A DNA stretch of 64,000 bases from an uncultured Bacteroidales bacterium (GTDB lineage: Bacteria > Bacteroidota > Bacteroidia > Bacteroidales > FEN-979). Numbering within the stretch: the stretch's first letter is position 1; each line of letters starts with the position of its first letter. The notes under the pieces are model-generated. The model ran no database searches. It saw nothing but the letters and a program-made list of their open reading frames with translations, and was not told the DNA's origin. Below, one piece after another: positions 1,401 to 15,254 of the stretch. The translations under genes were made by a program, and so were the position numbers. The stretch lies in NCBI GenBank assembly GCA_903926565.1, contig CAIYJU010000135.1, positions 6,751 through 70,750 on the forward strand. Direction: 5' to 3'.

Positions 1401-1778
1401 TTACATCAGGTCACCCAGCGGACCCAGGTTGATGTTCAAATCCCGATCGGTGAGGTTAAAATGTTTTTTCAGCTCCTCCATCTTCATTTCCAGCTTCATC
1501 AGCGTTTCGCCAAGCCGTTCAATTTCCTCTTCCGATAACGAACCGCCGTCGACTCTTCGCATGGCCTGTTTTTCAACCAGTTTCCGGATAAGTTCGACAA
1601 GGGTAAGCACCAGTTTCGCCAGTCCGGAATCTGCATTTTCTGGCGTAAGCTTCAGTCTTGAATCTTCAGCTTTGGATGCCAGTTTACCGATCTCCTCTGA
1701 TATTCCATCGAACGACCCGGTGTTGAACAGTATTTTATTTTCACTCATGCAAGGACTATTGAATTTTGATTTCAACAA
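1401..1778 (-). CDS. gvpK: gas vesicle protein GvpK
   Basis: GLAKLVLTLVELIRKLVEKQAMRRVDGGSLSEEEIERLGETLMKLEMKMEELKKHF...LGPLGDLM is the GvpK signature. The true start is probably the internal Met at 1748 (MSENKIL), which removes the 23-nt overlap with the upstream gene. Confidence 0.9.
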   Translation of the reverse strand: MLKSKFNSPCMSENKILFNTGSFDGISEEIGKLASKAEDSRLKLTPENADSGLAKLVLTLVELIRKLVEKQAMRRVDGGSLSEEEIERLGETLMKLEMKMEELKKHFNLTDRDLNINLGPLGDLM

Positions 1779-2511
1779 AATTATAGGGGGGCCAGGGCCC
1801 GGTAAGGATAAAGTTTAATCCCTGATGTTTATTCTGCAAATCCTGAACGGAGCGGACCAACTGAATTTCAACATCTTTATCAAGTAAAAATACTGCATCG
1901 ATGATGTTCTTTGCAGAGGCCATTTTTTTAAATCTGCTTTCCGCGCATAACAGGGCAAGACTTACGGTGATCTCTGCAATGACTGTATCAGCGTAATCAA
2001 CAAGCAGCTCTTCAAGCCTGTGTTCTTTCAGCTTTTTATTGATATATTCCCGATACGCTGAAATTGTGATGCCCGGGTCAGCGGGCGGGCTGAGGACAGC
2101 CTCTGATTTCATCCGCAGTTCTGCCGCCAATTTTTCGGAATCACAGAATATTTTCAATCCGAATTCTTGTTTGTTTTCAACCCGGTCGAGGTTCTGAAGA
2201 AATTCATCCCGGTTACGGACAAGCATTTCCAAGATTGCACCGGATGATTCCAGGGTTGAACCAAATCGCATTGGAAGAACCGGATACCGCTGAAACAGCG
2301 CATCGATCACGCCGGCATACTCAATGGCCAGAGATTTGTCTGCAGTAAAATCACATCTTTCTATCTCGCCGGTTACGGCAGCAATTTCATCATGGAAAAC
2401 AGCAAACAAATCAGCACCTCCAAGGCCTTTCATCCCCGCCAGAAGTGAAGTTAGCCCGTCCTGATTGTGTTTGACAGATACAACGGCATATATCATCTTC
2501 TGCATTTCCAT
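1756..2511 (-). CDS. GvpF/GvpL family gas vesicle protein (paralog 5)
   Basis: 251 aa. The N-terminus (IYAVV...) and the C-terminal LTGPWPPYNFV motif are typical of GvpF/L. Confidence 0.85.
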   Translation of the reverse strand: MEMQKMIYAVVSVKHNQDGLTSLLAGMKGLGGADLFAVFHDEIAAVTGEIERCDFTADKSLAIEYAGVIDALFQRYPVLPMRFGSTLESSGAILEMLVRNRDEFLQNLDRVENKQEFGLKIFCDSEKLAAELRMKSEAVLSPPADPGITISAYREYINKKLKEHRLEELLVDYADTVIAEITVSLALLCAESRFKKMASAKNIIDAVFLLDKDVEIQLVRSVQDLQNKHQGLNFILTGPWPPYNFVEIKIQ

Positions 2512-2523
2512 GTTCAGGTTGAT

Positions 2524-2730
2524 TTATTTCTCCGTGATCATCTTGCCCGCCTTCAACTGTTCCATGGTCTCGACAGAACTCAGCATTAATTTTAAGCCGA
2601 GATAAACCAGGTCAACATCTGCAACCGAGATAACAATATCGCCCGTGAGGATGACACCTTTGTTAAGGACCCTGTCGAGCAATTCAAGGATGGTAATGTC
2701 CTTCGAACGGTCAATTACATTATCATACAT
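2524..2730 (-). CDS. small GvpA-family protein (GvpS/GvpM/GvpJ-like minor structural protein)
   Basis: 68 aa. ITILELLDRVLNKGVILTGDIVISVADVDLVYLGLKLMLSSVE matches the GvpA-fold core. The start shares 1 nt with the upstream stop (TAATG). Confidence 0.85.
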   Translation of the reverse strand: MYDNVIDRSKDITILELLDRVLNKGVILTGDIVISVADVDLVYLGLKLMLSSVETMEQLKAGKMITEK

Positions 2731-3524
2731 TACTGATTCTCTTTAATGGAGACAAAGCTGAATGGCGGCCACGGCCCGGTTCCTTCAAGTTCAAAACCGA
2801 TCCCGGCATACTTTTTCTGTAACCGGCCAAGGAGTGAAACAAATTCAATGGTTTTATCTTTAGGCAGAAGAAATGCGGCATTCAGGATCATCTTGTCATT
2901 TCTTCCCGAAAATTCTTTTGGAATAATATTAATCAGTTTGGCAGATGCGCTGAGTGCATTAAATTCATTGAAAAATTCCTGTCCGTAACTCTTGGATAAC
3001 CTGTCGATTTCAAGGTCAATCAAATCCGCTTTTTTCCTGGTTAACAGGAACGCCTTCCCCGGCGAGCTTGCCATAATCTGGTATTCGAGTTCGGCTGCTT
3101 CATGGCTCAAATTATCTATCTGTGCCTTCATGACATCCTGGTTACAGTAAAGTTTGACTGCCCATTCCTCCTTCCATTCAACAAGAAGGAGGTTTTGCAC
3201 AATTGCATTTGAGTATTCGCCCATGAATTTTTTCAGTGATTCTTCAGACCGATAGATTGTACCAAAATTGAAAGGAATGACGGTATGGTCCTCCATCAGC
3301 ATGCTGATAATCGTAACATGCGACCGAACATTCAAATCGAGCCAGGCAAGATCTGACAACTTTTTTTTCAGGTTTTCTTCCGAAAAGTCGCATTCCTGAA
3401 CATTTTTCACAACGGCGTAAAACCCTCCAGAACTTACAACCTGCAAACCTTCAAACTCCGGCCTTCCGCCAGGTTCTGACATACTTGCGGAAACGCAATA
3501 GGCATAAATCAATTCCCTGTTCAT
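2730..3524 (-). CDS. GvpF/GvpL family gas vesicle protein (paralog 4)
   Basis: 264 aa. LIYAYCV... N-terminus, MILNAAFLLPKDK motif, C-terminal GTGPWPPFSFV. Confidence 0.85.
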   Translation of the reverse strand: MNRELIYAYCVSASMSEPGGRPEFEGLQVVSSGGFYAVVKNVQECDFSEENLKKKLSDLAWLDLNVRSHVTIISMLMEDHTVIPFNFGTIYRSEESLKKFMGEYSNAIVQNLLLVEWKEEWAVKLYCNQDVMKAQIDNLSHEAAELEYQIMASSPGKAFLLTRKKADLIDLEIDRLSKSYGQEFFNEFNALSASAKLINIIPKEFSGRNDKMILNAAFLLPKDKTIEFVSLLGRLQKKYAGIGFELEGTGPWPPFSFVSIKENQ

Positions 3525-3577
3525 TACATTGGTAAAATTAGCCCCGTTACAACAACATTTCCTGTAATTAAATGCGT

Positions 3578-3850
3578 CTATTGAGAAACGCTGTCCATCC
3601 CTTCAAAGGAATTGAGTCTTTCGAAGGCGGTTATTTCCAGTTTATCATCCATCTTCACCAAATAAAAAAGCCTTACCTGTTTCGGCGGGAGGTTCATTGA
3701 TTTCAGGAAGGAATCATCCTCATAAACCTCGGCGATGGAATTCCAGTTCTCCTGAACCTTCTCAATTTTAATAACCGTAACGTCGTAACAGTTAATATTC
3801 TCTTTCAGGAAATTAACCACTGTTTTTTTCACATCGATAATATTGCTCAT
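3578..3850 (-). CDS. GvpO-like small protein
   Basis: 90 aa. The segment VTVIKIEKVQENWNSIAEVYED...LFYLVKMDDKLEITAFERL has the same layout I recall for haloarchaeal GvpO (..EGWRTVVEVVER...YEITLD..G.VTGYE..). Called from similarity by eye only. Confidence 0.5.
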   Translation of the reverse strand: MSNIIDVKKTVVNFLKENINCYDVTVIKIEKVQENWNSIAEVYEDDSFLKSMNLPPKQVRLFYLVKMDDKLEITAFERLNSFEGMDSVSQ

Positions 3851-3918
3851 TGTCTCCTCCAGTTATTTTATGTTTTCATAGTCACAGGGATGGTTTGCGG
3901 GTCTGAATGTATCCGGTG

Positions 3919-4155
3919 CTATCTGTTTTGTTTATCGGCTCTGATCCTTTCAAGTAATTTCAACAACTCGTCTTCTCTTTCGTCGTATTCCTCTTCGTTA
4001 ATTTCATCCATTTCAAATTTCAGCTGCAGGGCCATCAGCCTCTCCTTGATGGCTCCTTCATCCGACATTTCCCTGTCGATCACTTCATTTATTTTCTTCC
4101 CGATAAAAATAACTCCTTTTAACGGAGCCAACAGGATGTCGTCAATTAAAAACAT
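3919..4155 (-). CDS. gvpG: gas vesicle protein GvpG
   Basis: 78 aa. MFLIDDILLAPLKGVIFIGKKINEVIDRE...EINEEEYDEREDELLKLLE is the GvpG pattern. 1-nt gap to the upstream gene. Confidence 0.8.
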   Translation of the reverse strand: MFLIDDILLAPLKGVIFIGKKINEVIDREMSDEGAIKERLMALQLKFEMDEINEEEYDEREDELLKLLERIRADKQNR

Positions 4156-4156
4156 G

Positions 4157-4939
4157 TTAAACTCCTTTAGTCTGGATTACAAGGTTGACAAAATTATAGG
4201 GAGGCAGCGTTCCGACGTATTTGAACGTCATCAATTTCCCGTATTTTTCGTCGAGGTCGGTCACGGCCTTGTCGAAGTCCGGCTCCACCGTGTTTTTTAT
4301 GAGAAATGCCGCGTTAAGTATCATCATTTCGCCATAATTGTCGTTGATTTTCTGGTCGTCTGAAAGCGGAGTAAGAACATCCATGATCATGTTTTTGTAA
4401 TTTCCCGTCTCCTTCTTCAGCGCTTCGGCAACCATTTCGCCAATTTTCATGCGCTGATAATGTGTTTTATCGACGGGCAGGTTGATCAGTTTTCCGCGCA
4501 ATGTTTTTATTTCATCATATTTTTCAATGATACTTTCGTACAACGGGGCTTCATGTGCAAGTACCTTCAGGCCCAGTTCCTTCTTCCCATCCATTTTAAG
4601 AAGAAGGTCGTCAAATTTTTTATATTCCTTTGCCAGGATGTTCAGAAGGCCTGAATCATCGTCATATTCGGAAATGGTTGAAAACCGCACCGGGAGCACG
4701 GTGAATTGCTTCATCACCTCCTCCAGCACCTTTTCATGCGTTGTCATGTTAACCCTCCTGGCTTCATATTGTATGACCGGCGAATTACTTACAACAGCAG
4801 TGACATCCTTGTAATTGATGCCATACACCCGGTCGGAGCGGACACCAATTCCGATGGGTCCGAATTCGATCGGGCCGGAATGCCTGATAATCCCGTAAAT
4901 GTACTTTCCTTCCTTTGGTATTCCAGCTGCTTCGCTCAT
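4157..4939 (-). CDS. GvpF/GvpL family gas vesicle protein (paralog 3)
   Basis: 260 aa. KYIYGII... N-terminus, MILNAAFLIKN motif, C-terminal GTLPPYNFVNL. Confidence 0.85.
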   Translation of the reverse strand: MSEAAGIPKEGKYIYGIIRHSGPIEFGPIGIGVRSDRVYGINYKDVTAVVSNSPVIQYEARRVNMTTHEKVLEEVMKQFTVLPVRFSTISEYDDDSGLLNILAKEYKKFDDLLLKMDGKKELGLKVLAHEAPLYESIIEKYDEIKTLRGKLINLPVDKTHYQRMKIGEMVAEALKKETGNYKNMIMDVLTPLSDDQKINDNYGEMMILNAAFLIKNTVEPDFDKAVTDLDEKYGKLMTFKYVGTLPPYNFVNLVIQTKGV

Positions 4940-4961
4940 ATAATGATTCGATTTATATTAG

Positions 4962-5735
4962 TTACAATTCCCATTTTTCAGGAAATATTTTAAGGTCAAT
5001 AAAATTAAAGATCGGCAGGGGTGCGGTATAAACAAAGTCGCTCCGATCCTGGTAAGTCGCGCCAATACCGGCCATGATGTTGTCAAATTCGATCTCCCTG
5101 CCGCTGTTGACCAGGAAGGCAGTATTCATGAACACCGCATCGCTGCTTGTTTTATTGTGCTTATATTCGAACACCGACCGGCGAAATGCATCAATAATGT
5201 TGTCGGACTCCTCCGCTTTCTTTTCAAGCAGAAGGCGTTCGACCATATGACCCGCTTCGTCTATCTTCATGTTCCTCTCCTTTGAGTCGCCCAGTACTTC
5301 AATTTCAGCCCTGAGCTTTTGAAGTTCAACGTGTTGCCGGTCGATTTCCTGGTAGATGACACCCATGTTTTTCCAGGTTCCCCGCACATTCAGTTCCACC
5401 TTGTTTTCGAATTGCTTCAGCAGTTCCATAAACTCACTGTACCTGCGGTTCAGGAGATTCCTGATCTCATCCGGGGTTGCTGCGATGGTGCCGAACCTGA
5501 TGGGCAGGATGCTTCTGAATTCCTTCATCACCTCTTCTATCACTTTCTGGTGGGCCAGCATGTTTTCGGGGTTGACGACAAACCGACTTAGCGGATGATC
5601 ACTCACCACCATGCACAAGCCTTCGAACCCGATGGTTGAGACAAGGTCTGCACGTCCGCCCACGCCTATCGGCCCCAGGTTGATGTCATAATCTGATGCA
5701 ATGATGCAATAAATGTATTTTCCGTCGCGCTGCAT
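4962..5735 (-). CDS. GvpF/GvpL family gas vesicle protein (paralog 2)
   Basis: 257 aa. KYIYCIIAS...GPIGVGGR...VSDHP, MNTAFLVNS motif, C-terminal PLPIFNFIDL. Confidence 0.85.
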   Translation of the reverse strand: MQRDGKYIYCIIASDYDINLGPIGVGGRADLVSTIGFEGLCMVVSDHPLSRFVVNPENMLAHQKVIEEVMKEFRSILPIRFGTIAATPDEIRNLLNRRYSEFMELLKQFENKVELNVRGTWKNMGVIYQEIDRQHVELQKLRAEIEVLGDSKERNMKIDEAGHMVERLLLEKKAEESDNIIDAFRRSVFEYKHNKTSSDAVFMNTAFLVNSGREIEFDNIMAGIGATYQDRSDFVYTAPLPIFNFIDLKIFPEKWEL

Positions 5736-5736: not shown

Positions 5737-6777
5737 TTAATCCTTTATTTTAACCAAAATCAAATTCCCGGCAACATCTTCCTTCGCCAGGGATATTACT
5801 TCATCTTTAACCGACTGTCTGACTGAAGCAGCATAGTCAAGCAGGGAGTGGTAGGCCTCAAGGATGATGTTGAAATTCTCAGTATCACTGCTGTCGTGAT
5901 TGTTGTCGGGATGAAATTGCTTTGCTTTTTCCAGGTAGGCCCTTTTTATCTCCTGCTCGGATATTTTCTCCCTGACACCCAGCGCTTTCCGTGCCTGATC
6001 TACCTTGTCGGCATTCAACGCAACAACCTCCAGCGTGAAAAAACTGTAACAGGGCAACGGGCCTATCAGTTTAAAATTCAGGACCCCCTGGTATTTTTCG
6101 TCAAGCATGTCAATTGCATGCTCAAACTTTTCCCTTTTATTCCTGTTTATTAAAAATGCAGAATTTAAGATCATCTCGTCATTCATCACTTCATGCATTT
6201 TGATATCGAGGCCGTAAGGGGATAATACATCCAGCACCTTCAGCTCAACATCCTTATTTTCGGTATCCAACCTCTCTTTTATCAGCATACCTACTTTTAC
6301 CTGATCAACTTTTGTCAGGGCATGATTGTTTTGCAAGAGTTCGACTTTCAGCGCATTGATTTCGGGATGGGTGGAAATATCCTGAAGCAGCCCGGGAAAA
6401 TCACCCCATGTTACAACCAGGTCTATTTCAGTCAGGTACTCAATCTTCTTCAGGGCATCTATGATCAGATCATGACCACAGGTAAGAATTTTGAGCACCT
6501 CATCCGTTGAAGTTACGATGGTGCCAAGCCTCATTGGGAGGATCATGGTGAATCCCTTCCGCTGGAGTTCTTCGATGGTTTCCTGGTGATGGACCAGCAA
6601 ATAAGCCAGGGATTCCCTGTCTGAAAAATTGACTTCGGAGCTGTCTCTTTCTGAAACAATGGCCGAAATATTTTGAAACGTAACCGCATAAACTCCCGAA
6701 TTTTCAAGAGTTTGAAATTGGGTTGTACCATAAAAATTGGGCACAATCCCATAGATGTATAATCCTTTTGCTGTCAT
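5737..6777 (-). CDS. GvpF/GvpL family protein fused to a C-terminal DnaJ-type J-domain
   Basis: 346 aa. Residues 1-250 are GvpF/L-like (LYIYGIV..., MILNSAFLINRNK, GPLPCYSFFTL). Residues about 258-320 read ARKALGVREKISEQEIKRAYLEKAKQFHPDNNHD..ENFNIILEAYHSLLD, a J-domain. The HPD tripeptide is at nt 5913-5905, verified on the DNA. Confidence 0.8.
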   Translation of the reverse strand: MTAKGLYIYGIVPNFYGTTQFQTLENSGVYAVTFQNISAIVSERDSSEVNFSDRESLAYLLVHHQETIEELQRKGFTMILPMRLGTIVTSTDEVLKILTCGHDLIIDALKKIEYLTEIDLVVTWGDFPGLLQDISTHPEINALKVELLQNNHALTKVDQVKVGMLIKERLDTENKDVELKVLDVLSPYGLDIKMHEVMNDEMILNSAFLINRNKREKFEHAIDMLDEKYQGVLNFKLIGPLPCYSFFTLEVVALNADKVDQARKALGVREKISEQEIKRAYLEKAKQFHPDNNHDSSDTENFNIILEAYHSLLDYAASVRQSVKDEVISLAKEDVAGNLILVKIKD

Positions 6778-6839: not shown

Positions 6840-8999
6840 TTACTTCTTCGTTATGTTTTGCTTCAATACCAGTTGTATTGCTTCTTCAAAATGTGTTTCC
6901 AAAATTGATATTTCACCAGAATTCACCTTGCCATTGTCCCTGTTTTTTTCAATCAGTTCCCGGATGGCAAGCATTGCAGCTTTGCGGCATACAAATTCGA
7001 TATCCGACCCCGTCATGGTATCGGTTTTAAGAGCGAGCTTCGCGATGTTTACTTTTTTCCCAAGGGGTTTGTTCCTTGTATGTATATGGAATATCTGCTC
7101 CCTGGTTTTCACATCCGGCAATGGCAATTCGAAGATCAGGTCGAACCGGCCGCTTCTGAGCAGGGCGGGATCTATCAAATCGATCCTGTTGGTTGCTGCG
7201 AGTACAATAACGCCTTTCAAATCCTCAATCCCATCCATTTCTGTAAGAAACTGCCCGATAACTCTTTCAATTACGCCGGAACCTGAGCCATCGTTGCTGC
7301 GCCTGGGTGTCAGACTGTCAATTTCGTCGAGGAAGAGGATGCATGGAGATGCCTGCTTTGCCATCCTGAAGAGTTCGCGTACCCCTTTTTCCGATTCACC
7401 GATATAACGGCTCAGGATCTGGGGCCCTTTTACTGAAATGAAATTCACGCCGCTTTCGCTTGCCAGCGCTTTGGCCAGGTATGTTTTGCCGGTTCCCGGT
7501 TTCCCGTGAAGGATAATTCCCTTGGGGGGCCGTGTATCAGCTTTCTTAAACAGTTCAGCATACTGGAGCGGCCATTCCACTGTCTCTTTCAGTGCCTCCT
7601 TTATTTCGTCAAGGCCGCCAACATCTTCCCATTTCACATCAGGCACCTCTACGAAAACCTCCCTGATTGCCGAAGGTTCCACCTCTTTCATGGCATCCGT
7701 AAAGTTGTCCATGGTCACTTCCAGCGCCATCAATATTTCGTATGGAATTTCGGCCATCGCAAAATCGATTTGCGGCAATATTTTCCGCAGGGCGGTCATG
7801 GCGGCTTCCCGGGCCAGCGCTTCAAGATCGGCACCCACAAATCCGTGGGTGATTTCGGCCAGTTTTTCCATATCCACATCCATCGACAGCGGAATCCCCC
7901 GGGTGTGGATGAGGAGAATTTCCAGCCTTCCCTTTTTGTCGGGGATGGAGATTGAAATTTCACGGTCAAACCTTCCGGGTCTTCTCAGTGCGGGATCAAT
8001 GGAATTAGGGATGTTGGTCGCGCCGATCACGATGACCTTCCCTCTCGATTCAAGGCCATCCATCAATGACAACAGTTGGGCGACAACACGTTTTTCAACC
8101 TGTTTTTCTCCCCCCATCTCCTCCCTTTTGGGGGCAATGGCATCAATTTCATCGATAAAGATAATGGAAGGCGCATGGGCCTGGGCCTCCTCAAAAAGTT
8201 TACGGATCCGGCCTTCGCTCTCCCCGTAAAATTTACCCATGATCTCCGGGCCGGAGATGTTGATAAAATAGGCATCTGTTTCCTGTGCAACCGCCCTGAC
8301 AATGAGTGTTTTTCCGGTTCCCGGAGGCCCGTAGAGGAATACCCCCTTGGGTGGCTGGATCCCCAGCCGGTCAAATATTTCCGGATACTTGAGGGGAAGT
8401 TCAATCATCTCCCTGATACGCTGAACCTGGTTGCCAAGTCCGCCGATATCCTCGTAAGAGACCTTGCTCCGGTGCTCTCCGTCCTGCTTTGCCAGTTCAA
8501 GCTGAAAAATGGTATTCGGGTGGATCAGCACGATCCCCTCCGGGTTGACACCGGTAACCGTATAATTCACTGAGCGTGAGCCGAATAAATTCGCCCTCAC
8601 TTTATCGCCTTTTATCACAGGCAGCCCACTGAACAAAGAACCGATATATTTTGAGTCATCAGCCTTGAACAAAGAGCCTGATTTAGTGTCTGGCTTTAAC
8701 TTTATTTTTATCGCCTGGCGGAAGGTTGCTTTTTCAACAGTCACTTTCTCATCGATCCCTGCCTGGGCATTTTCCCTGGTAATCCCGTCAATTTGAATGA
8801 GGCGCTTGTCCCTGTCTTCCGGATAACAAGGCATGATTTTTACCGGTGTTGCACGCTTGCCTTCAATCACAACAAGGTCGCCACTTTCCAGGTCAAGCAA
8901 TTTCATGTCTTTCGGGTCGATCCTTGCGATGGCCCTTCCAACGTCCTTTACCAGGGCTTCCTTTACACGGAGGATTATGTCGCTTTTTGTTTTAGTCAT
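6840..8999 (-). CDS. Cdc48/VCP/VAT-like AAA+ ATPase (Cdc48-N domain plus two AAA+ modules)
   Basis: 719 aa. Cdc48-type N-domain ([40 protein letters not shown]...). Two Walker A motifs ([18 protein letters not shown]) and two Walker B motifs ([20 protein letters not shown]). Confidence 0.9.
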
Positions 9000-9008
9000 T
9001 GCTGAAAT

Positions 9009-9944
9009 TTATTCAAACAGGCACATTTTCAACTTATTCAGAGCATCCAGCCCTTTTATCTCTTCTGCGAACCTTTGCACTTCAACTTTGTTTAAATGAC
9101 GAAAGGTTTCGTTGATGCCGGTTAAATAAGGCAATTGGCTGGCTTTGCTCCGCCTGCAGAATCCGCATTCATCCGAAACCATCACATTGTTTACAATGAG
9201 CTGTCGTGCAACGATACCAGAACTGGCAAGAATCGACAGCAATCTTTCTGTTTCCCTCATTGCCATTGCTTCCGGAATGCAAACCGGGATAAATTCACAC
9301 CGGGTTGCATCGCGCAGGATGTTTTCAATCCTTTTGACAGTCCTTTTCAGGCTGAGTAAAAGCACATCCACGTCATCATGCTGGTAGGATCCTGAAAAAC
9401 TGGTGATCATGTACCGGTATTTCCACCTCATTCTTGCAGCCACCTTGATCCAGTCGTCCAATAACTTCGGAGAAGATATCAACCTTAAGGCATGCCCGGT
9501 GGGTGCAGTATCCACAACATATTTATCGTATTCCCCCTGTTCCATGAAATCGGTGATGGTTTTAAAACTCATCACCTCGTCGATGCCGGGAATCGACAGG
9601 GCAAGCATCTCTTCAATATCCTGGTTATCAAGATTTGTTGAAGTTTCGAGCAACTTTTTCAGTTCAGCCTGATGCGCACTGATAAATACTGAAAGCGCCT
9701 CGTCGGCAAATACTTCAATCGCAGAGAGGTTGGGGCTGCCATCTACTTTAACTACCTGGAATCCAATTTTCTGACCAAGGCAATCCGACACGGAATGCGC
9801 CGGATCAGTTGAGATAAGCAATGTTTTAAAATTTTCAGCCAGTGACATGGCTGTGGCAACGGCACAACTGGTTTTTCCAACACCGCCTTTTCCGCCAAAA
9901 ATGAGAAGTTTCAGGTCGCTGTTATCTAAGCCCTTCAGTCCCAT
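9009..9944 (-). CDS. ArsA/Get3(TRC40)-family P-loop ATPase
   Basis: 311 aa. Deviant Walker A GGKGGVGKTS, STDPAHSVSD, switch II DTAPTGHALRL, and a Get3-style CxxC (SDECGFCRR). 4-nt gap to hsp20 and 9-nt gap to the cdc48-like gene. Confidence 0.85.
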   Translation of the reverse strand: MGLKGLDNSDLKLLIFGGKGGVGKTSCAVATAMSLAENFKTLLISTDPAHSVSDCLGQKIGFQVVKVDGSPNLSAIEVFADEALSVFISAHQAELKKLLETSTNLDNQDIEEMLALSIPGIDEVMSFKTITDFMEQGEYDKYVVDTAPTGHALRLISSPKLLDDWIKVAARMRWKYRYMITSFSGSYQHDDVDVLLLSLKRTVKRIENILRDATRCEFIPVCIPEAMAMRETERLLSILASSGIVARQLIVNNVMVSDECGFCRRSKASQLPYLTGINETFRHLNKVEVQRFAEEIKGLDALNKLKMCLFE

Positions 9945-9948
9945 TGCG

Positions 9949-10467
9949 CTATTTTTTTATCCTGATCTCAAGGATGCCGTTTGTAAATTTATGCCTTAGA
10001 TTTTTCCTTTCGGCTTTTTCAGGAAGCAGCACTTCCTTGCGGTATGACCTGCTTTTGTTGACTGCTGAAATTTCAAGGATATCTTCTTTCAAATCAATAA
10101 CAATGTCATTTTCCTCGATTCCCGGCATTTCTGCAATAATCACAAGTTCATTCTTTTCATTAAAGATGTCGGTAATGGGTTCCCGTTCTTCATCCACTTT
10201 GGGTCCCTCGGGTGTTTTTTTGATATTGCCGAAAGTTTCTACTTTCGGGCTTCCGCCAACTGCCGTGTTTATTGTAAAGCCATAGACACCTTTCATTCCT
10301 TTTTTGATGTGGTCAAAATTGAGCTCCCCTTCCTTTTTAATGCCACCCTTTTCATCGAGTTTCCCTGCAAGGTCAACAAGTTTCTCAATACCTTTGAACA
10401 GATCACCAAGTCCGAAAAATCCGGTATCGGCTTCGTCCTTTTTTTTATTATTCTTATCGTTGTCCAT
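9949..10467 (-). CDS. Hsp20/alpha-crystallin family small heat-shock protein (GvpH-position protein)
   Basis: 172 aa. C-terminal alpha-crystallin domain ELVIIAEMPGIEENDIVIDLKEDILEISA...RKEVLLPEKAE...KFTNGILEIRIKK. Confidence 0.8.
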   Translation of the reverse strand: MDNDKNNKKKDEADTGFFGLGDLFKGIEKLVDLAGKLDEKGGIKKEGELNFDHIKKGMKGVYGFTINTAVGGSPKVETFGNIKKTPEGPKVDEEREPITDIFNEKNELVIIAEMPGIEENDIVIDLKEDILEISAVNKSRSYRKEVLLPEKAERKNLRHKFTNGILEIRIKK

Positions 10468-10529: not shown

Positions 10530-10829
10530 TTACTCCGGCCTGTTCATCGCCTCCAGTTTCTCCAGACGCGACACCAGCTCTTCCTGGTGCTGCATCAGCT
10601 CCTTCTCCCTGGCTTTTGTTGAAAGGTACGTATCTTCCTGCCACCAGTTGATCCCCATCTCCATCGCCTTGTCGACCGAAGCGATCAGCAACCTGATTTT
10701 GATGGTCAGCAGATCAATATCCGCTATCTGAATTTTTATATCTCCTGCAATTACGATTCCCTTGTCGAGGACTCTTTCAAGAATATCGGCAAGACCTGTC
10801 GCCTGAATGGAGTGGGTAGGTTCTGACAT
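10530..10829 (-). CDS. gvpJ: gas vesicle protein GvpJ (GvpA family with C-terminal extension)
   Basis: 99 aa. LADILERVLDKGIVIAGDIKIQIADIDLLTIKIRLLIASVDKAMEMGINWW is the GvpJ-type core. Confidence 0.85.
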   Translation of the reverse strand: MSEPTHSIQATGLADILERVLDKGIVIAGDIKIQIADIDLLTIKIRLLIASVDKAMEMGINWWQEDTYLSTKAREKELMQHQEELVSRLEKLEAMNRPE

Positions 10830-11182: not shown

Positions 11183-12118
11183 TTATTGCGCAATTTTTAA
11201 ACTGGTGTATTGTTCTATCAGTTCGTTCACGATGAATTTCACCTTTTCCTGGTTGGTTTTTGAGCCAATCCTGCTGGTTTCTGACGTAAGAATATCCTGG
11301 CAGATTTTCCGGAACATATCTTTTGATTTCGAGGGTGTTGTTTTCAGGGTTGCCAGTGTTTTGGCAATCATGATGGAACCGCGGATGGTCGGATCGAATT
11401 CCGTTTTCCCTGATTCACGCAAACCTCTCACAATTTTAACGATAATTTCGGTATCCTTTAACGACAATTGCGATTTGGCCCTGGTAATCTGCAATTCGGT
11501 TTCATAGTCGAAATGGTCCAGGTCCATGGTCACCATGCGGTCGCGCAGTGCATCCTGCGTGCGGTTAACACCGGCATACTCTTCAGGGTTTGACGTAAAG
11601 ATGGCACGGAATTCAGGGTGTACCTTCATATAGTAATCCTCCTCCTTTGCTGCCGATGTGCTTAACATCCGCTCCTGAAGAATCGGAAGCAGGATATTGT
11701 TGGCCTCAGGACGTGAACGCGTAAATTCATCGTAGATCAGGGTGAACCCGTTTTTCACTGCGATGGTTAAACGGTTGTTCACCCATTGCTTGGTCATGTC
11801 CTCTTCATACTTATGAACAGAATGGATGAATTTGTCGTCAAGCTTTTTATATTTATACCCCTGTTCACTTCCGATCAAATCGGAAGTTTTATACTCGGCA
11901 TCACCATGGATAATGACAACAGGCCGGCCGATTTTACTTGCCAGGTGCATGGCTACCGTCGTTTTCCCGGTACCTGAAGGCCCCCTGAAATGAACCGGGA
12001 ATCCAGCCTGGATATACGTAAGGCCGCGGCTGGTGATGTCCCTTATGTAATCCGTTTCTACAAAATTGGACATCGGCTTCAGTTCAAGCACGGTATTCAT
12101 CTCATTGTTGTTGCTCAT
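11183..12118 (-). CDS. gvpN: gas vesicle protein GvpN (MoxR/CbbQ-like AAA+ ATPase)
   Basis: 311 aa. FVETDYIRDITSRGLTYIQAGFPVHFRGPSGTGKTTVAMHLA... and Walker B LIYDEFTRS are typical GvpN features. Confidence 0.9.
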   Translation of the reverse strand: MSNNNEMNTVLELKPMSNFVETDYIRDITSRGLTYIQAGFPVHFRGPSGTGKTTVAMHLASKIGRPVVIIHGDAEYKTSDLIGSEQGYKYKKLDDKFIHSVHKYEEDMTKQWVNNRLTIAVKNGFTLIYDEFTRSRPEANNILLPILQERMLSTSAAKEEDYYMKVHPEFRAIFTSNPEEYAGVNRTQDALRDRMVTMDLDHFDYETELQITRAKSQLSLKDTEIIVKIVRGLRESGKTEFDPTIRGSIMIAKTLATLKTTPSKSKDMFRKICQDILTSETSRIGSKTNQEKVKFIVNELIEQYTSLKIAQ

Positions 12119-12358: not shown

Positions 12359-12673
12359 TCAGGCGCCAAACCCTTTGCCTTTGCATTGCGTGCACGGCAG
12401 GTTATCTCCTGATTTGCCAGTCCCTTTGCATTTCAGGCACACATTGCTGCCGGCAACGTGATTGCTCCCTTTTCCGCTACACACAATACACGGCACCCTT
12501 GCTCCCAGCGGGTTTTTACCGGACCCGGCACAAAAAACGCATTTCATCAAGGGTTTCTCAACATTCACACGTCCGAGGCCATTGCATGCCAGGCAATGTG
12601 AGATTGAGGAAAGCAGGTCAAAAGGATCCTTGCCTGTGCCGCTGCAAAACGGGCAATTAAAAACTTCTATCAT
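12359..12673 (-). CDS. stand-alone DnaJ-type cysteine-rich zinc-finger protein (six CxxCxGxG repeats)
   Basis: 104 aa containing CPFCSGTG, CLACNGLG, CVFCAGSG, CIVCSGKG, CLKCKGTG and CTQCKGKG. This is the CxxCxGxG repeat of the DnaJ central domain, with no J-domain or C-terminal domains. Confidence 0.8.
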   Translation of the reverse strand: MIEVFNCPFCSGTGKDPFDLLSSISHCLACNGLGRVNVEKPLMKCVFCAGSGKNPLGARVPCIVCSGKGSNHVAGSNVCLKCKGTGKSGDNLPCTQCKGKGFGA

Positions 12674-12713: not shown

Positions 12714-13922
12714 TTATTTCAACGGGAAGTAAATGTTGTCAATTTTCTGCACTTTACCCTCGTCGAGCAAACCTTTGGCGGTAAAGCCAAGTTTCATGCG
12801 TGTTTCTCCCAGTGGTGCTTCCATCTCCGAGATCTTTACGCCCTTGGGATGTTTATTAATAAAATCCAGCACCTTATCTTCAAGTTTCAGGGGCTCTTCC
12901 TTAAATGTGGCAAATGCAAGAACTTCCTGGGCCGGAACGGCACTTACTGCCTCAGCCGGGGCTGCCTTTGCAGGGGCTGCAGGGGCCTCTTTTTTCGCCT
13001 CCTGTTTTTCAGCTTTCTTCGGTGCCTGTTTGGGTGCGGGAACAACGCCAGTTTTCCTGATATGGTCCATCGCACTTTTCATTTTATTCCATTCGGCCGA
13101 TGCCTCAACCCGGTTTTGCAGCAGATCATCCAGCATTGCACCGGTTGATTTCTGTACATCCCTGACCTCTTTCCGGATATCTTTAATAGAGACATGAATG
13201 CCTTTCATGATTGCATTAAAATCGCTGATCCGTTCGTTTTCGCCTTTGGCAAGATCTTTTCTCAGTTTCTGGGCCATTTTCTGGTTTTCCCTGCCGATTT
13301 CCGACAATCTTTTCTGGAACCCGGAAAGCAGGGTCCTCGTGTACTCAACCCTTTCTCCAAGGTTCTTGGCAAGTTCCGCTCTCAGTTCTGCCGACATGTC
13401 CTGATGTTCCTTTTCAAACCGGTCGAGCATATCATTCGTATTCAGGAAAATTGCCGAAACTTCATCATTGATACTTTTGATATCAGCATTGATGTTTGTC
13501 ATGAGGGCATCAAACTCCTTCATACGTGTTTTTTCATTTTGCGCCCGTCCGGCTCTTTCTTCAGCAAAGGACTTCCCAAGTTCCTCAGCCATCTGCGACC
13601 GCTCAACGGTAAATTCATTGATCATGTTAAACGTGGAAGTTTGAATCGCCACTACTTCCTTCTGGATGGAGGCAATTGTTCCATGGATTCCTGTCATTAA
13701 TCCCTTGAAGTTGCCCAGCCGTTCTTTCTCCCCGCGGGCGAGGCCTTTTCTTAATGCAGCAGCATTTGCATTTAAAGCGGCAGCCATCTCCTGGTGGTCC
13801 TTGCGGAAACCGTCAAGCGTTATCTGCACATCGTTAACAAGTTCTTCATTTTCCCTGATGCGCTGCCTGAATGATGCAAGCAACTCTTCTGTCAGGTTCT
13901 TCATGTCTGATGCTAGTCCCAT
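12714..13922 (-). CDS. repeat-containing coiled-coil protein with Pro/Ala/Lys linker and small C-terminal globular (winged-helix-like?) domain; candidate non-canonical GvpC analog
   Basis: 402 aa. Internal repeats are visible by eye: RKGLARGEKERLGNFKGLMTGIHGTIASIQKEVVAIQTST vs RKDLAKGENERISDFNAIMKGIHVSIKDIRKEVRDVQKST vs RAQNEKTRMKEFDALMTNINADIKSINDEVSAIFLNT. Also FRKDHQEMAAAL vs FEKEHQDMSAEL. These are followed by APKQAPKKAEKQEAKKEAPAAPAKAAPAEA and a roughly 60-aa tail. Confidence 0.75.
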   Translation of the reverse strand: MGLASDMKNLTEELLASFRQRIRENEELVNDVQITLDGFRKDHQEMAAALNANAAALRKGLARGEKERLGNFKGLMTGIHGTIASIQKEVVAIQTSTFNMINEFTVERSQMAEELGKSFAEERAGRAQNEKTRMKEFDALMTNINADIKSINDEVSAIFLNTNDMLDRFEKEHQDMSAELRAELAKNLGERVEYTRTLLSGFQKRLSEIGRENQKMAQKLRKDLAKGENERISDFNAIMKGIHVSIKDIRKEVRDVQKSTGAMLDDLLQNRVEASAEWNKMKSAMDHIRKTGVVPAPKQAPKKAEKQEAKKEAPAAPAKAAPAEAVSAVPAQEVLAFATFKEEPLKLEDKVLDFINKHPKGVKISEMEAPLGETRMKLGFTAKGLLDEGKVQKIDNIYFPLK

Positions 13923-13964: not shown

Positions 13965-14621
13965 TTAATTGATCTCCTTGATAATTTGATTTTTTATGCT
14001 TTTTATATCTTTTACCTGGATCTGATCGCCTTTTTCGAGCAAACTTTCCAGGCACTCCATCATCCTGCCGTGCATGTTCTGAAAATCCATGAAGGTCTTC
14101 ATTACTGTTTCCTTCCTCATTTCCTGTACTTTAGAAACCTGGGAAAGTTGCTCCTTGATGATGTTGATTTTTTCGGTGGCATCCTGCGATGTAATGTCCC
14201 TGATGCCGAGCAGGCTTAATTTAAGCGACTGGGCAGTCTCTTTCTGGGATTCGATAAATGAGAGGAACAAAATTTCAGCGGCCCGTTCTTTTTCGTCGAG
14301 CGCGCAAAGAATGCCTGACATCATCGAATAATAATCCTTTTTACGGAGGGATCCGTTTTTTGCCATAATTTCACAAATTCTGAAATTCAGGACTTCCCGC
14401 TCCTTTTTCAGATCGTTGAGAGAATTATGCACGTTGTCGAACAGGCAGTGCGATGATTCTGTAATATTTTCAGATGACTGGAAAGCTGTTTGAATTTTTT
14501 GAATGCGGGTTTCGTAGGAGGTTATGATGTTGTCAAAAAAACCATCGATGTTTAATTCGGGCAGTGGATTCATTCTTGGTAGTTTATTTGCAGGTTTTCG
14601 GGAAAGATGACTTTTTGACAT
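13965..14621 (-). CDS. coiled-coil protein, distant paralog of the 402-aa repeat protein; function unknown
   Basis: 218 aa. Shares motifs with the neighbour: TSYETRIQK vs ASFRQRIRE, and MAKNGSLRKKDYYSMMSGI vs LAKGENERISDFNAIMKGI. It is the first gene after gvpA. The start may instead be the Met at codon 17. Confidence 0.7.
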   Translation of the reverse strand: MSKSHLSRKPANKLPRMNPLPELNIDGFFDNIITSYETRIQKIQTAFQSSENITESSHCLFDNVHNSLNDLKKEREVLNFRICEIMAKNGSLRKKDYYSMMSGILCALDEKERAAEILFLSFIESQKETAQSLKLSLLGIRDITSQDATEKINIIKEQLSQVSKVQEMRKETVMKTFMDFQNMHGRMMECLESLLEKGDQIQVKDIKSIKNQIIKEIN

Positions 14622-14764: not shown

Positions 14765-14968
14765 TTAAGCTGCTTTTGCAGTTAATCCGATGGCTTCAGC
14801 ATACTTCAGGTATGTTTCAACAGAGGCAACAACGATTCTTGCTTCAATTGCAAGCAATTCGATACCTACCAAAGAAACTCTTACCCATGCATCAACTACA
14901 ACACCTTTGTCAAGGATACGGTCGATAACTTCAACGAGGCTTGATGATCCGATAGTCTTTTCTACCAT
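14765..14968 (-). CDS. gvpA: major gas vesicle structural protein GvpA
   Basis: 67 aa. [55 protein letters not shown] is near-canonical GvpA. An SD-like GGAG sits about 9 nt upstream of the ATG, which is unusual for this window. Confidence 0.97.
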
Positions 14969-15173: not shown

Positions 15174-15254
15174 AAATATCAGAACAGCCGGCAATATAAT
15201 CACGTGCTGTACGCGTTATCGCGTGAAACAAACAGCCTGTTTCCCTGTATAAGG

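What the first reader, a model, noticed from the sequence alone, without database searches (positions are those of the whole stretch)
9009..9944. Get3/TRC40-like ATPase with Get3-type CxxC encoded in a gas-vesicle operon
The protein has the ArsA/Get3 hallmarks: GGKGGVGKTS, STDPAHS, DTAPTGHALRL. It also has a C-terminal CGFC (residues 260-263) in the context VNNVMVSDECGFCRRSKASQLPYL. That parallels the zinc-bridging CxxC of eukaryotic Get3 (..NQLLF....C..C..R.KMQ.KYL). It is a single half-size ATPase, not a duplicated arsenite-pump ArsA, and no arsB, arsC or arsR gene is nearby. Get3 chaperones hydrophobic tail-anchor segments, so a role shielding or delivering hydrophobic GvpA-family proteins is plausible and, as far as I know, undescribed.
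Basis: partly seen in the sequence, partly recalled or inferred. Interest (0 to 1): 0.82.

Follow-up and report, generated by a model that had tools for sequence, protein, structure and literature searches.

The report
Get3-like ATPase in gas-vesicle operon
This gene encodes a Get3/ArsA-family ATPase that always sits between a small heat-shock protein and a CDC48 unfoldase inside gas-vesicle operons of many bacterial phyla; it probably helps handle the very hydrophobic vesicle shell proteins, but the gene association was already published in 2010 and the function is untested.

Summary
[quoted passage not shown] Its CGFC (residues 260-263) aligns with the zinc-binding CxxC of archaeal and fungal Get3.

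It is not an arsenite-pump ArsA:
- The metalloid-binding cysteines are replaced.
- It is not duplicated.
- No ars genes lie in the 64 kb.
- It falls outside the well-supported pump clade.

A confident model (pLDDT 89) best matches archaeal Get3 (TM 0.80). The gene belongs to a tight clade found only in gas-vesicle operons, always in the order Hsp20, ATPase, CDC48. That triad occurs in Bacteroidota, Chlorobi and about a dozen other phyla. The nearest relatives are tandem CxxC versions in gas-vesicle clusters of other phyla.

The best explanation is an ATP-driven dimeric chaperone or delivery factor for GvpA/J/M shell proteins. This is inferred, not shown.

The claim that this is undescribed is too strong. 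Castillo & Saier (2010) reported arsA homologues with hsp20 in gvp clusters. Farkas et al. (2019) catalogued bacterial Get3-like proteins of unknown function. What is new is the link between the two, the single-domain CxxC form, and the conserved triad.

The parts
9009..9944 (-). 311-aa single-domain Get3/TRC40/ArsA-family ATPase (the finding)
   Evidence: AF2 model has pLDDT 89.2 and pTM 0.85. Best Foldseek match is M. thermautotrophicus TRC40 3zq6_D, TM 0.80, rmsd 3.4.
9867..9896 (-). Deviant Walker A / P-loop GGKGGVGKTS (residues 17-26)
   Evidence: G17-T25 are invariant in 48 orthologues.
9792..9812 (-). Switch I STDPAHS (residues 45-51), including the presumed catalytic Asp47
   Evidence: Invariant.
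9480..9512 (-). Switch II DTAPTGHALRL (residues 145-155)
   Evidence: Invariant.
9384..9431 (-). Clade signature MRWKYRYMITSFSGSY (residues 172-187), at the position of the Get3 TRC40-insert/helix 8
   Evidence: K175 is invariant and R177, F183 and G185 are >=90% conserved, also across the tandem relatives. Modelled as the end of a long helix 149-184.
9156..9167 (-). CGFC (residues 260-263), homologous to the zinc-bridging CxxC of Get3
   Evidence: HMMER alignments to 3ug6, 3zq6 and 3ibg. Conservation.
9949..10467 (-). Hsp20/alpha-crystallin protein; its stop codon is 4 nt upstream of the ATPase start
   Evidence: Pfam HSP20. NCBIfam archaeal Hsp20 scores 133.9 bits, just under the 140-bit cut-off. 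Present directly upstream in 78/80 loci.
6840..8999 (-). CDC48/VAT-type double-ring AAA+ unfoldase; it starts 9 nt after the ATPase stop
   Evidence: TIGR01243 scores 907 bits. Best PDB match is Thermoplasma VAT 5g4f. Directly downstream in 73/80 loci; the rest are cut by contig ends.
14765..14968 (-). GvpA, the 67-aa major shell protein and candidate client
   Evidence: Pfam Gas_vesicle 4.4e-16. It has the most hydrophobic 19-residue window in the operon, residues 23-41.
10530..10829 (-). GvpJ-like GvpA-family protein (99 aa), candidate client
2524..2730 (-). GvpJ/M-like GvpA-family protein (68 aa), candidate client
11183..12118 (-). GvpN AAA+ ATPase
   Evidence: TIGR02640 scores 346 bits.
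12359..12673 (-). 104-aa DnaJ-type CXXCXGXG zinc-finger protein
5737..6777 (-). GvpF/L fused to a C-terminal J domain
1756..5735 (-). Four further GvpF/L paralogues (1756-2511, 2730-3524, 4157-4939, 4962-5735). This span also includes the GvpJ/M-like gene 2524-2730 (listed separately above) and a weak GvpO-like ORF (3578-3850).
1401..1778 (-). GvpK

Best explanation
The gene encodes a gas-vesicle-dedicated member of the Get3/TRC40/ArsA ATPase family. It most likely acts as an ATP-controlled homodimer. In this protein and most orthologues the dimer would be bridged by a zinc ion held by the two CxxC motifs. The amphipathic helical subdomain would capture the hydrophobic segment of small GvpA-family shell proteins (GvpA, GvpJ/M) after they leave the ribosome. 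It would keep them soluble and release them at the growing vesicle on ATP hydrolysis. It would work together with the two genes that always flank it: an Hsp20 holdase upstream and a CDC48/VAT-type unfoldase downstream. SHOWN: family membership, the Get3-like fold, intact catalytic motifs, the homologous CxxC, exclusion from the arsenite-pump clade, and strict conserved linkage to Hsp20, CDC48 and gvp genes across many phyla. INFERRED: dimerisation, zinc binding, the identity of the client, the direction of hand-over, and cooperation with Hsp20 and CDC48.
For: 1. Family and fold. Pfam and NCBIfam scores are well above cut-off. The model has pLDDT 89 and the top 50 Foldseek hits are all Get3/TRC40, the best being archaeal 3zq6 at TM 0.80.
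2. The P-loop, switch I, switch II and the Gly298-containing A-loop region are invariant, so an active ATPase is expected.
3. The CxxC is homologous to the Get3 zinc site. It is kept in 174/198 close orthologues and 27/28 orthologues from other phyla.
4. The helical subdomain is 116 residues long, against 122 in archaeal CxxC Get3 and 85-97 in pump ArsA halves. Its Met content is 4.5%, against 1.5-2.4% in pump ArsA. There are 5 Met between helices 4 and 9. By comparison, Farkas 2019 (PMC6593721) reports at least 4 in all fungi and 6 in ScGet3. Helices 159-184 and 191-211 are amphipathic with continuous hydrophobic stripes.
5. Context. In 80/80 species-level loci the gene lies in a gvp cluster in the order Hsp20, ATPase, CDC48 wherever the contig allows. 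The gaps in the window are 4 and 9 nt. The same triad occurs in gvp clusters of about 12 further phyla.
6. The nearest non-orthologous relatives are tandem CxxC Get3-like proteins. These also lie in gvp clusters (Chloroflexota, Acidobacteriota, Gemmatimonadota, Myxococcota, Rokubacteria), flanked by GvpF/L and often with no GvpN nearby.
7. The only strongly hydrophobic segments in the operon are in the 67-68-aa GvpA and GvpJ/M-like proteins. They end 18-26 residues from the C-terminus, so like tail anchors they would still be inside the ribosome tunnel at termination. The positions come; the tunnel argument is my inference.
8. Precedent from the literature. Archaeal and yeast Get3 bind hydrophobic segments and can act as holdases, and Get3d carries a fused alpha-crystallin domain (PMC10248533, PMC6593721, PMC3613179). 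GvpA is proteotoxic and thought to need chaperoning (PMC11445434).
Against: - There are no experimental data for any member of this clade.
- From established knowledge rather than anything tested here, the well-studied gas-vesicle systems (Halobacterium, Bacillus megaterium, Anabaena-derived reporter clusters, Serratia) assemble vesicles without a Get3-like gene. The protein is therefore accessory at most.
- GvpF/G are already proposed as the GvpA chaperones (PMC11445434).
- The segment at the position of the Get3 lid is 6-9 residues shorter than in archaeal Get3. It is an invariant aromatic/basic motif (MRWKYRYM), not a variable Met-rich lid. That looks more like a specific protein-protein contact than a promiscuous hydrophobic clamp.
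- The first CxxC cysteine is lost in all Chlorobiaceae orthologues and several Bacteroidales orthologues that keep the same operon, so the zinc bridge cannot be essential to the clade's function.
- Only a monomer could be modelled and no coordinates were available, so the existence of a composite hydrophobic groove was not tested.
Confidence: 0.5

Rival explanations
1. Nucleotide-dependent assembly switch rather than client chaperone. The ATP-bound dimer would act like other SIMIBI ATPases (MinD, ParA, NifH, and Get3 in its receptor-docking role). It would recruit or release assembly factors such as GvpF/L, GvpN or CDC48 at the nascent vesicle, thereby timing or energising a biogenesis step without itself holding GvpA.
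For: The lid-position motif MRWKYRYM..F.G.Y..D..D is invariant and aromatic/basic, as expected of a specific protein interface. In the tandem relatives the gene is flanked on both sides by GvpF/L and is often the only ATPase in the cluster. Castillo & Saier 2010 proposed exactly this: that it energises a biogenic step.
Against: The Get3-sized amphipathic helical subdomain is retained rather than reduced as in ArsA. Flanking by a holdase (Hsp20) and an unfoldase (CDC48) points to handling of non-native protein.
Confidence: 0.25
2. Quality-control or recycling module. Hsp20, the Get3-like ATPase and CDC48 together would extract, hold and re-use or clear misassembled or collapsed GvpA aggregates, rather than serve primary assembly. 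The cysteines might provide a redox switch to an ATP-independent holdase, as in oxidised yeast Get3.
For: The triad composition is holdase, Get3-like protein, VAT-type unfoldase. Several cysteines are conserved beyond the CxxC (C27, C55, C216, C222). Query C222 aligns with the second Cys of the fungal CVC motif. Yeast Get3 moves to aggregate deposition sites with sHsps and Hsp104 (PMC3613179, title and abstract).
Against: The triad is embedded in the middle of the structural operon and is translationally tight with it, which suggests co-expression with assembly. C222 is Thr in nearly all orthologues from other phyla, so a conserved redox switch is unlikely.
Confidence: 0.17
3. Classical tail-anchored membrane-protein targeting factor that merely happens to lie in the gvp operon.
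For: Get3 fold and CxxC. Archaeal Get3 binds TA proteins (PMC6593721).
Against: No operon protein has a C-terminal transmembrane segment. The clade is found only in gvp clusters. Farkas 2019 found no correlation between bacterial TRC40-insert-containing Get3 homologues (other than the tandem two-domain forms) and predicted TA-protein load, and cites evidence that in E. coli at least other chaperones target TA proteins.
Confidence: 0.05
4. Arsenite-pump ArsA subunit or another metal(loid)-handling ATPase.
For: Database names ('arsenite-transporting ATPase') and the Pfam family name.
Against: The columns of the ArsA metalloid cysteines hold invariant Gly120 and Met179. TIGR04291 scores 111 bits against a 650-bit cut-off. 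The pump N-half and C-half clades have 100% support each, and the joint group at 96% excludes it. No ArsD, Acr3, ArsR or ArsC homologue lies in the window.
Confidence: 0.02

Closest known systems
Archaeal CxxC Get3 (M. jannaschii Get3, PDB 3UG6/3UG7; M. thermautotrophicus TRC40, 3ZQ6; 'group 12' of Farkas et al. 2019)
   Same: Single domain of about 310-350 aa. Same fold (TM 0.80). These are the best single-domain sequence matches in the PDB (160-163 bits). The CxxC is at the homologous position. The helical subdomain is of similar size.
   Different: The lid/TRC40-insert region is 29 residues instead of 35-38 and is aromatic/basic (MRWKYRYM) instead of Met-rich. Met content of the subdomain is 4.5% against 8.2%. 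This protein is bacterial and restricted to gas-vesicle operons. The tree does not resolve a specific sister relationship.
Gas-vesicle-cluster ArsA homologues of Castillo & Saier 2010 (their clusters 4 and 6) / tandem CxxC bacterial Get3 homologues ('group 8' of Farkas et al. 2019)
   Same: Encoded in gvp clusters with no ars genes. The CxxC is present in most halves, and the N halves share a K-[HY]-R-[YF]-[MLV] ... F.G.Y..D..D motif. In my distance matrix and NJ tree the Chloroflexota members are the nearest neighbours of this clade. The 2010 paper also lists Bacteroidetes/Chlorobi gvp clusters with arsA plus hsp20.
   Different: Those proteins are 620-690-aa internal duplications (pseudo-dimers); this one is a 311-aa monomer that must homodimerise. 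Most tandem loci lack the Hsp20 and CDC48 neighbours and GvpN. The 2010 paper states that gvp-linked forms are two-domain. The 2019 table has no bacterial 'single domain plus CxxC' group.
Get3d (A. thaliana Get3d, Nostoc All4481; PDB 3IGF/8EGK)
   Same: A Get3-fold protein functionally coupled to an alpha-crystallin/Hsp20 module, with a hydrophobic client chamber (PMC10248533).
   Different: In Get3d the alpha-crystallin domain is fused, the CxxC helix is missing and the A-loop is absent. Here Hsp20 is a separate upstream gene and both the CxxC and the catalytic motifs are intact. The ~400-aa clade has 100% support and excludes the query. The NosAFP model scores 52.5 bits against a 325-bit cut-off.
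E. coli ArsA arsenite-pump ATPase (PDB 1F48)
   Same: Same superfamily and ATPase core (114 bits).
   Different: See the membership test: not duplicated, no metalloid cysteines, no ars operon, and a longer helical subdomain.
Eukaryotic Get3/TRC40
   Same: The CxxC..R.K.Q..YL context aligns (A. fumigatus Get3). The fold matches at TM 0.75-0.81.
   Different: No GET1/2/4/5 partners are known in bacteria (background knowledge). The CVC motif is reduced to one Cys. The candidate client is a shell protein of a protein-walled organelle, not a lipid-membrane protein.

Membership tests
Get3/TRC40/ArsA superfamily (Pfam PF02374, NCBIfam TIGR00345) | Profile score above the curated cut-off over the full length | tested here: met
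   PF02374 scores 251.6 bits (cut-off 24.3) over residues 12-309. TIGR00345 scores 248.5 bits (cut-off 135).
Get3/TRC40/ArsA superfamily (Pfam PF02374, NCBIfam TIGR00345) | Deviant Walker A, switch I (DPAHS) and switch II (DTAPTGH) | tested here: met
   Residues 17-26, 45-51 and 145-155; invariant in orthologues.
Get3/TRC40/ArsA superfamily (Pfam PF02374, NCBIfam TIGR00345) | Get3/ArsA fold | tested here: met
   Model pLDDT 89.2. The top 50 Foldseek hits are all Get3/TRC40, TM up to 0.81.
Get3/TRC40 targeting factor in the strict sense | CxxC that bridges a homodimer through zinc | tested here: inconclusive
   The motif is present and homologous in this protein. Zinc binding and dimerisation are not testable here. 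The first Cys is missing in 12% of close orthologues.
Get3/TRC40 targeting factor in the strict sense | TRC40-insert (helix 8 lid) and extended helices 7 and 9 | tested here: inconclusive
   The region is 29 residues, against 35-38 in archaeal Get3 and 15 (N half) or 4 (C half) in pump ArsA. It is modelled as one long helix 149-184, a 6-residue loop and helix 191-211, with no separate lid helix.
Get3/TRC40 targeting factor in the strict sense | Methionine-rich composite hydrophobic groove in the closed dimer | tested here: inconclusive
   There are 5 Met between helices 4 and 9, and helices 7 and 9 are amphipathic. No dimer model or coordinates were available.
Get3/TRC40 targeting factor in the strict sense | Binds tail-anchor transmembrane segments and docks on a Get1/2-type receptor | not testable with these tools
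   Needs biochemistry. No TA protein is encoded in the operon.
ArsA arsenite-pump ATPase (NCBIfam TIGR04291) | Two homologous halves in one ~580-aa chain | tested here: not met
   311 aa with one P-loop.
ArsA arsenite-pump ATPase (NCBIfam TIGR04291) | Metalloid-binding cysteines (E. coli C113, C172, C422) | tested here: not met
   The columns that are >=88-100% Cys in 26-27 pump halves hold invariant Gly120 and Met179 in the query clade.
ArsA arsenite-pump ATPase (NCBIfam TIGR04291) | Equivalog score and ars operon context (ArsD, ArsB/Acr3, ArsR, ArsC) | tested here: not met
   111 bits against a 650-bit cut-off. No homologue of the ArsD, Acr3, ArsR or ArsC genes of the reference loci lies in the window. 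The pump clade excludes the query with 96-100% bootstrap support.
Get3d / NosAFP | C-terminal fused alpha-crystallin domain; no CxxC helix | tested here: not met
   The protein ends at residue 311, directly after the A-loop helix, and the CxxC is present. NF050088 scores 52.5 bits against a 325-bit cut-off. The ~400-aa clade excludes it at 100%.
gvp-cluster-associated ArsA homologues (Castillo & Saier 2010) | Encoded within a gas-vesicle gene cluster, without ars genes, often next to hsp20 | tested here: met
gvp-cluster-associated ArsA homologues (Castillo & Saier 2010) | Two-domain protein of about 600 aa, as that paper states for gvp-linked forms | tested here: not met
   Single domain, 311 aa. 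All 80 orthologous loci encode proteins of about 310-325 aa.
MinD/ParA/Mrp-type SIMIBI ATPases | Family profile above cut-off | tested here: not met
   MinD 22.5 bits against 212.9, ParA 22.2 against 180, MrpORP 18 against 450. Only the P-loop region matches.

The most novel reading that the evidence does not exclude
The Hsp20, Get3-like ATPase and CDC48 triad is a portable machine for handling hydrophobic proteins. It would deliver GvpA-family proteins to a protein-walled, gas-filled organelle. That would be a Get3-type post-translational targeting pathway whose destination is not a lipid membrane. It would also assign a first physiological client to the large group of bacterial Get3 homologues of unknown function. 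All three parts have archaeal-type closest relatives, so the module may also bear on what Get3 did before the eukaryotic GET pathway existed.
Probability: 0.3. Interest if true: 0.75.

Novelty: new member of a known kind. Interest (0 to 1): 0.5.

Why it matters
Two open questions meet at this gene. First, how is the extremely hydrophobic, aggregation-prone GvpA kept soluble and inserted into a growing gas vesicle? Second, what do the many bacterial Get3 homologues do, given that bacteria lack a GET pathway? A clade of Get3-like ATPases confined to gas-vesicle operons gives a concrete and easily testable client hypothesis. If the triad does improve handling of shell proteins, it could also help heterologous expression of gas vesicles as acoustic reporter genes. 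The gene association itself is not new (2010), so the value lies in the mechanistic link and in the breadth and strictness of the conserved triad.

Tried and rejected
- The first AF2 model, built on a shallow alignment (>=74% identity), had pLDDT 66 and was unreliable in the helical subdomain. It was replaced by a model from a more diverse alignment.
- No homodimer or client complex could be modelled, and no coordinates are returned. The hydrophobic groove was therefore assessed only from sequence.
- The profile-based genome scan for tandem relatives used generic P-loop and switch I patterns and returned a mixed sample of the whole family. I reused it as a labelled reference set for the tree and for ars-operon controls.
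- Biopython NJ bootstrapping ran close to the time limit and then failed on a scripting error. It was replaced by my own NJ implementation with 200 replicates. Deep branches remain unresolved: sister support is 22%. No maximum-likelihood software was available.
- The listing of cluster members gave no useful names for the distant representatives.
- I looked for the Pelodictyon luteolum and Polaribacter irgensii genes cited in 2010 and did not recover them in the capped scans. Identity of those genes with this clade is therefore likely but unverified. A cultured member, Chlorobium phaeovibrioides BrKhr17, was recovered.
- A sigma-54 promoter upstream of gvpA: only a TGGCAC was found, with no matching -12 element. 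Not claimed.
- A ParA/MinD-like organelle-positioning role was considered and set aside because only the P-loop matches those families.
- Recent horizontal acquisition was set aside: GC content of the cluster (0.451) is close to that of the window (0.465).
- A self-BLAST for repeats in the 402-aa neighbour gave nothing.
Full report
**1. The observation**

Window 9009-9944 holds an ATG-started 311-codon ORF on the minus strand. The finding gave the coordinates but not the strand. Every quoted motif is present:
- GGKGGVGKTS at residues 17-26
- STDPAHS at residues 45-51
- DTAPTGHALRL at residues 145-155
- CGFC at residues 260-263, within VNNVMVSDECGFCRRSKASQLPYL

The protein matches Pfam ArsA_ATPase (E=1.4e-74, residues 12-309). 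It also matches NCBIfam TIGR00345 'TRC40/GET3/ArsA family' at 248.5 bits against a cut-off of 135.

All neighbours lie on the same strand. In transcription order they are:
- GvpA (14765-14968)
- two unknown ORFs
- a DnaJ-type zinc-finger protein (12359-12673)
- GvpN (11183-12118)
- an unknown ORF
- a GvpJ-like protein (10530-10829)
- Hsp20 (9949-10467)
- the ATPase
- a CDC48-type AAA+ protein (6840-8999)
- a GvpF/L-J-domain fusion (5737-6777)
- four more GvpF/L genes, a weak GvpO-like ORF and a GvpJ/M-like protein (2524-2730)
- GvpK (1401-1778)

The Hsp20 stop codon is 4 nt from the ATPase start. The ATPase stop codon is 9 nt from the CDC48 start.

**2. What it is not**

The arsenite-pump equivalog model TIGR04291 scores only 111 bits against a cut-off of 650. 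MinD, ParA and Mrp models match only the P-loop.

I built a reference set of 80 loci drawn from across the whole family. I aligned 133 single domains, splitting tandem proteins into N and C halves. Results from neighbour-joining with 200 bootstraps:
- Pump-type N halves form a clade of 26 taxa with 100% support.
- Pump-type C halves form a clade of 27 taxa with 100% support.
- Together with a Chloroflexota tandem group they form a 59-taxon group at 96% support that excludes the query.
- A ~400-aa clade (cyanobacteria, Chloroflexi, Actinomycetota and others; Get3d-like) has 100% support and also excludes it.

That the 'pump' loci really are ars operons was checked. ArsD is present in 22/26, an Acr3-type permease in 17/26, ArsR in 13/26 and ArsC in 12/26. 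No ORF from those loci other than arsA itself has an ars-related match anywhere in the 64-kb window. The only other hits are a sigma-54 regulator and a sensor kinase from one locus (L128), which match the generic regulator genes at ~15.3-17.7 kb. At the alignment columns that hold the metalloid-binding cysteines in the pump halves, the query clade has invariant Gly120 and Met179.

**3. What it resembles**

Against PDB sequences:
- The top-ranked entry is the tandem Chlamydomonas ArsA1 (5zme), at 223.7 bits summed over both halves.
- The best single-domain matches are M. jannaschii Get3 (162.7 bits), M. thermautotrophicus TRC40 (159.6) and A. fumigatus Get3 (158.2).
- E. coli ArsA scores 113.9 bits over two stretches.

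HMMER aligns C260 and C263 onto the CxxC of the two archaeal proteins and of the fungal protein. The following R.K.Q..YL context is shared as well.

A first AlphaFold model from a shallow alignment was poor (pLDDT 66). A second, from a more diverse alignment, is confident (pLDDT 89.2, pTM 0.85). Its 50 best Foldseek matches in the PDB are all Get3/TRC40 chains. The best is 3zq6_D, with TM 0.80 and rmsd 3.4 Å over 308 columns.

**4. The helical (client-binding) subdomain**

| Feature | Query clade | Archaeal CxxC Get3 | Pump ArsA halves |
|---|---|---|---|
| Subdomain length | 116 residues | 122 | 85-97 |
| Met content | 4.5% | 8.2% | 1.5-2.4% |
| Region homologous to TRC40-insert | 29 residues | 35-38, Met-rich | 15 (N half), 4 (C half) |

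- The query has 5 Met between helices 4 and 9. Farkas et al. 2019 report at least 4 in all fungi and 6 in yeast Get3.
- The insert-homologous region reads VAARMRWKYRYMITSFSGSYQHDDVD.
- It is modelled as the end of one long helix (149-184), then a six-residue loop, then helix 191-211.
- Helices 159-184 and 191-211 are amphipathic. Their hydrophobic moments are 0.41 and 0.59, reached by 6% and 2% of shuffles.
- The core of the insert motif is strikingly conserved. R173-R177 are invariant in 48 word-index hits. K175 is invariant, and M172, R177, F183, G185 and D190 are at least 90% conserved when tandem relatives are included.
- Caveat: two of my locus sets were retrieved with patterns that include MRWKYRYM, so conservation in those sets is partly by construction.

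An invariant aromatic/basic motif does not look like a promiscuous lid. It suggests a specific partner or a single, highly conserved client. Because only a monomer could be modelled and no coordinates are returned, the composite groove was not tested.

**5. Distribution and context**

- A genome scan found relatives in 185 GTDB species genomes. The 80 best are Bacteroidales, Prolixibacteraceae, Lentimicrobiaceae and Chlorobiaceae. The closest is a Draconibacterium MAG at 95% identity.
- All 80 encode single-domain proteins of about 310-325 aa.
- Hsp20 is found in 78/80, CDC48 in 73/80, a GvpA-family gene in 76/80 and GvpN in 64/80.
- Nearly every absence is explained by a contig end next to the gene.
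- Where both neighbours are visible, the order Hsp20, ATPase, CDC48 on one strand is the only one seen.
- A pattern scan for the signature motif recovered the same single-domain gene in the same triad inside gvp clusters of many other lineages: Pirellulales/Planctomycetota, Omnitrophota, Cloacimonadota, Nitrospirota, Nitrospinota, Elusimicrobiota, Latescibacterota, Desulfobacterota lineages, Ignavibacteria, Victivallaceae and Prosthecochloris. It also recovered the cultured Chlorobium phaeovibrioides BrKhr17.
- The Bacteroidota/Chlorobi orthologues form a clade with 100% bootstrap support.

**6. The CxxC across the clade**

- In 198 Bacteroidota/Chlorobi sequences, C263 is present in 99% but C260 in only 88%. 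All Chlorobiaceae have S-G-F-C and several Bacteroidales have G-D-F-C.
- In the other phyla the CxxC is present in 27 of 28.
- The motif is therefore ancestral and usually kept, but it has been lost repeatedly without loss of the operon context. Cytosolic plant Get3, which works without a CxxC, shows the same tolerance (PMC10248533, PMC6593721).

**7. Nearest relatives outside the clade**

- An exhaustive HMMER search of 1.84 billion cluster representatives shows that the next-best matches are 620-690-aa tandem proteins at 35-43% identity.
- These tandem proteins have a CxxC in both halves.
- Among the best-matching tandem loci in the sampled genomes (L081-L098), ten lie in gvp clusters: Anaerolineales, Dehalococcoidales, Blastocatellia, Thermoanaerobaculia, Terriglobia, Vicinamibacterales, Gemmatimonadaceae, Labilithrix, Rokubacteria and Angelobacter. 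They are typically flanked by GvpF/L. Outside Chloroflexota they have no GvpN, Hsp20 or CDC48 within 10 kb.
- The Chloroflexota N halves are the nearest neighbours of the query clade, but with only 22% support. Archaeal CxxC Get3 lies at about the same distance. The deep topology is unresolved.

**8. Prior literature**

- Castillo & Saier 2010 (PMC2963123) reported arsA homologues in gvp clusters of four phyla. These include Polaribacter irgensii and Pelodictyon luteolum, where arsA lies with gvpNLFGJKM and hsp20. [quoted passage not shown]
- Farkas et al. 2019 (PMC6593721) catalogued bacterial Get3 homologues. Their catalogue includes tandem CxxC forms in Myxococcales and Proteobacteria, and calls the functions of these bacterial homologues unclear. 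It lists no bacterial 'single domain plus CxxC' group and does not mention gas vesicles.
- No paper in the searchable library contains both 'gas vesicle' and 'Get3'.
- Iburg et al. 2024 (PMC11445434) argue that GvpA needs chaperoning and propose GvpF/G for that role.

The gene association is therefore known. Three things were not found in print: the Get3-type chaperone reading, the single-domain CxxC architecture, and the conserved Hsp20-ATPase-CDC48 triad.

**9. Mechanism**

The best-supported reading is an ATP-controlled, Get3-like dimer dedicated to gas-vesicle biogenesis. The most probable clients are the GvpA-family proteins.
- They contain the only strongly hydrophobic segments in the operon: GvpA residues 23-41 and the GvpJ/M-like protein residues 32-50.
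- They are only 67-68 aa long. By my inference, these segments leave the ribosome only at termination, which is the same topological problem that Get3 solves for tail anchors.
- The flanking Hsp20 has an archaeal sHsp as its closest solved relative (4rzk). The flanking CDC48 is closest to Thermoplasma VAT (5g4f). Together they suggest a holdase-unfoldase-carrier relay.
- The recurring pairing of Get3-fold proteins with alpha-crystallin modules (Get3d) is a precedent.

I put about 0.95 on the identity and the gas-vesicle dedication, and about 0.5 on the client-chaperone mechanism. The main rivals are a nucleotide switch acting on assembly factors such as GvpF/L (0.25) and a quality-control or recycling role (0.17). 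Classical TA targeting and arsenite pumping are essentially excluded.

**10. Verdict**

It is a new member of an already reported kind, gvp-linked ArsA/Get3 homologues. It carries a useful and testable mechanistic hypothesis, and its conserved gene triad is broader and stricter than previously described. Interest is moderate.

Noticed in passing
window 6840-10467 (-); loci L183-L248: The gene order Hsp20, Get3-like ATPase, CDC48/VAT-type AAA+ is conserved inside gas-vesicle clusters of Bacteroidota, Chlorobi and about a dozen further phyla. All three have archaeal proteins as their closest solved relatives (4rzk; 3zq6/3ug6; 5g4f). I found no description of the triad, or of a CDC48 gene in bacterial gvp clusters, in the searched literature.
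   Followed up: partly
window 5737-6777 (-) and 12359-12673 (-): One of the five GvpF/L paralogues carries a C-terminal J domain. This implies recruitment of DnaK/Hsp70 to a gas-vesicle assembly factor. A separate 104-aa protein consists of DnaJ-type CXXCXGXG zinc fingers. The operon is unusually rich in chaperone parts.
   Followed up: no
loci L083, L084, L092, L093, L096, L098 (around 8.7-14.7 kb in each): Tandem CxxC Get3-like genes sit in compact gvp clusters of Acidobacteriota, Gemmatimonadota, Myxococcota and Rokubacteria, usually between two GvpF/L genes. No GvpN, Hsp20 or CDC48 is detectable within 10 kb. There the Get3-like protein may be the only ATPase of the cluster.
   Followed up: partly
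window 15255-20059 (-) and 14969-15254: A sigma-54-dependent NtrC-type response regulator (15255-16646) and a 1134-aa receiver/PAS/histidine-kinase hybrid (16655-20059) lie directly upstream of gvpA on the same strand. The gvpA upstream region contains TGGCAC (about 15032-15037 on the minus strand) but no matching TTGC -12 element. Sigma-54 control of the operon is possible but not shown.
   Followed up: partly
window 12714-13922 (-) and 13965-14621 (-): There are two conserved ORFs without Pfam families between gvpA and gvpN (402 aa and 218 aa, present in about 58-60 of 80 loci). The 402-aa protein shows three similar ~35-residue segments (around residues 65-100, 134-170 and 228-265). These are followed by an Ala/Pro/Lys-rich linker and a C-terminal globular part. 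It could be a GvpC-like outer scaffold.
   Followed up: no
window 9009-9944 (-), residues 27, 55, 216, 222: Four further cysteines are conserved in Bacteroidota/Chlorobi orthologues. C222 aligns with the second Cys of the fungal Get3 CVC motif, but it is Thr in almost all orthologues from other phyla. A lineage-specific redox feature is possible.
   Followed up: partly
window 20210-29162 (-) and 56241-62375 (+): The rest of the window looks like an ordinary Bacteroidota chromosome. It holds a GH38 mannosidase-like protein, an alpha-L-fucosidase with a PA14 domain, and three proteins with type IX secretion sorting domains (one of 2044 aa). It also holds SHMT, polyphosphate kinase and PriA. GC content is uniform: cluster 0.451, window 0.465.
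   Followed up: no
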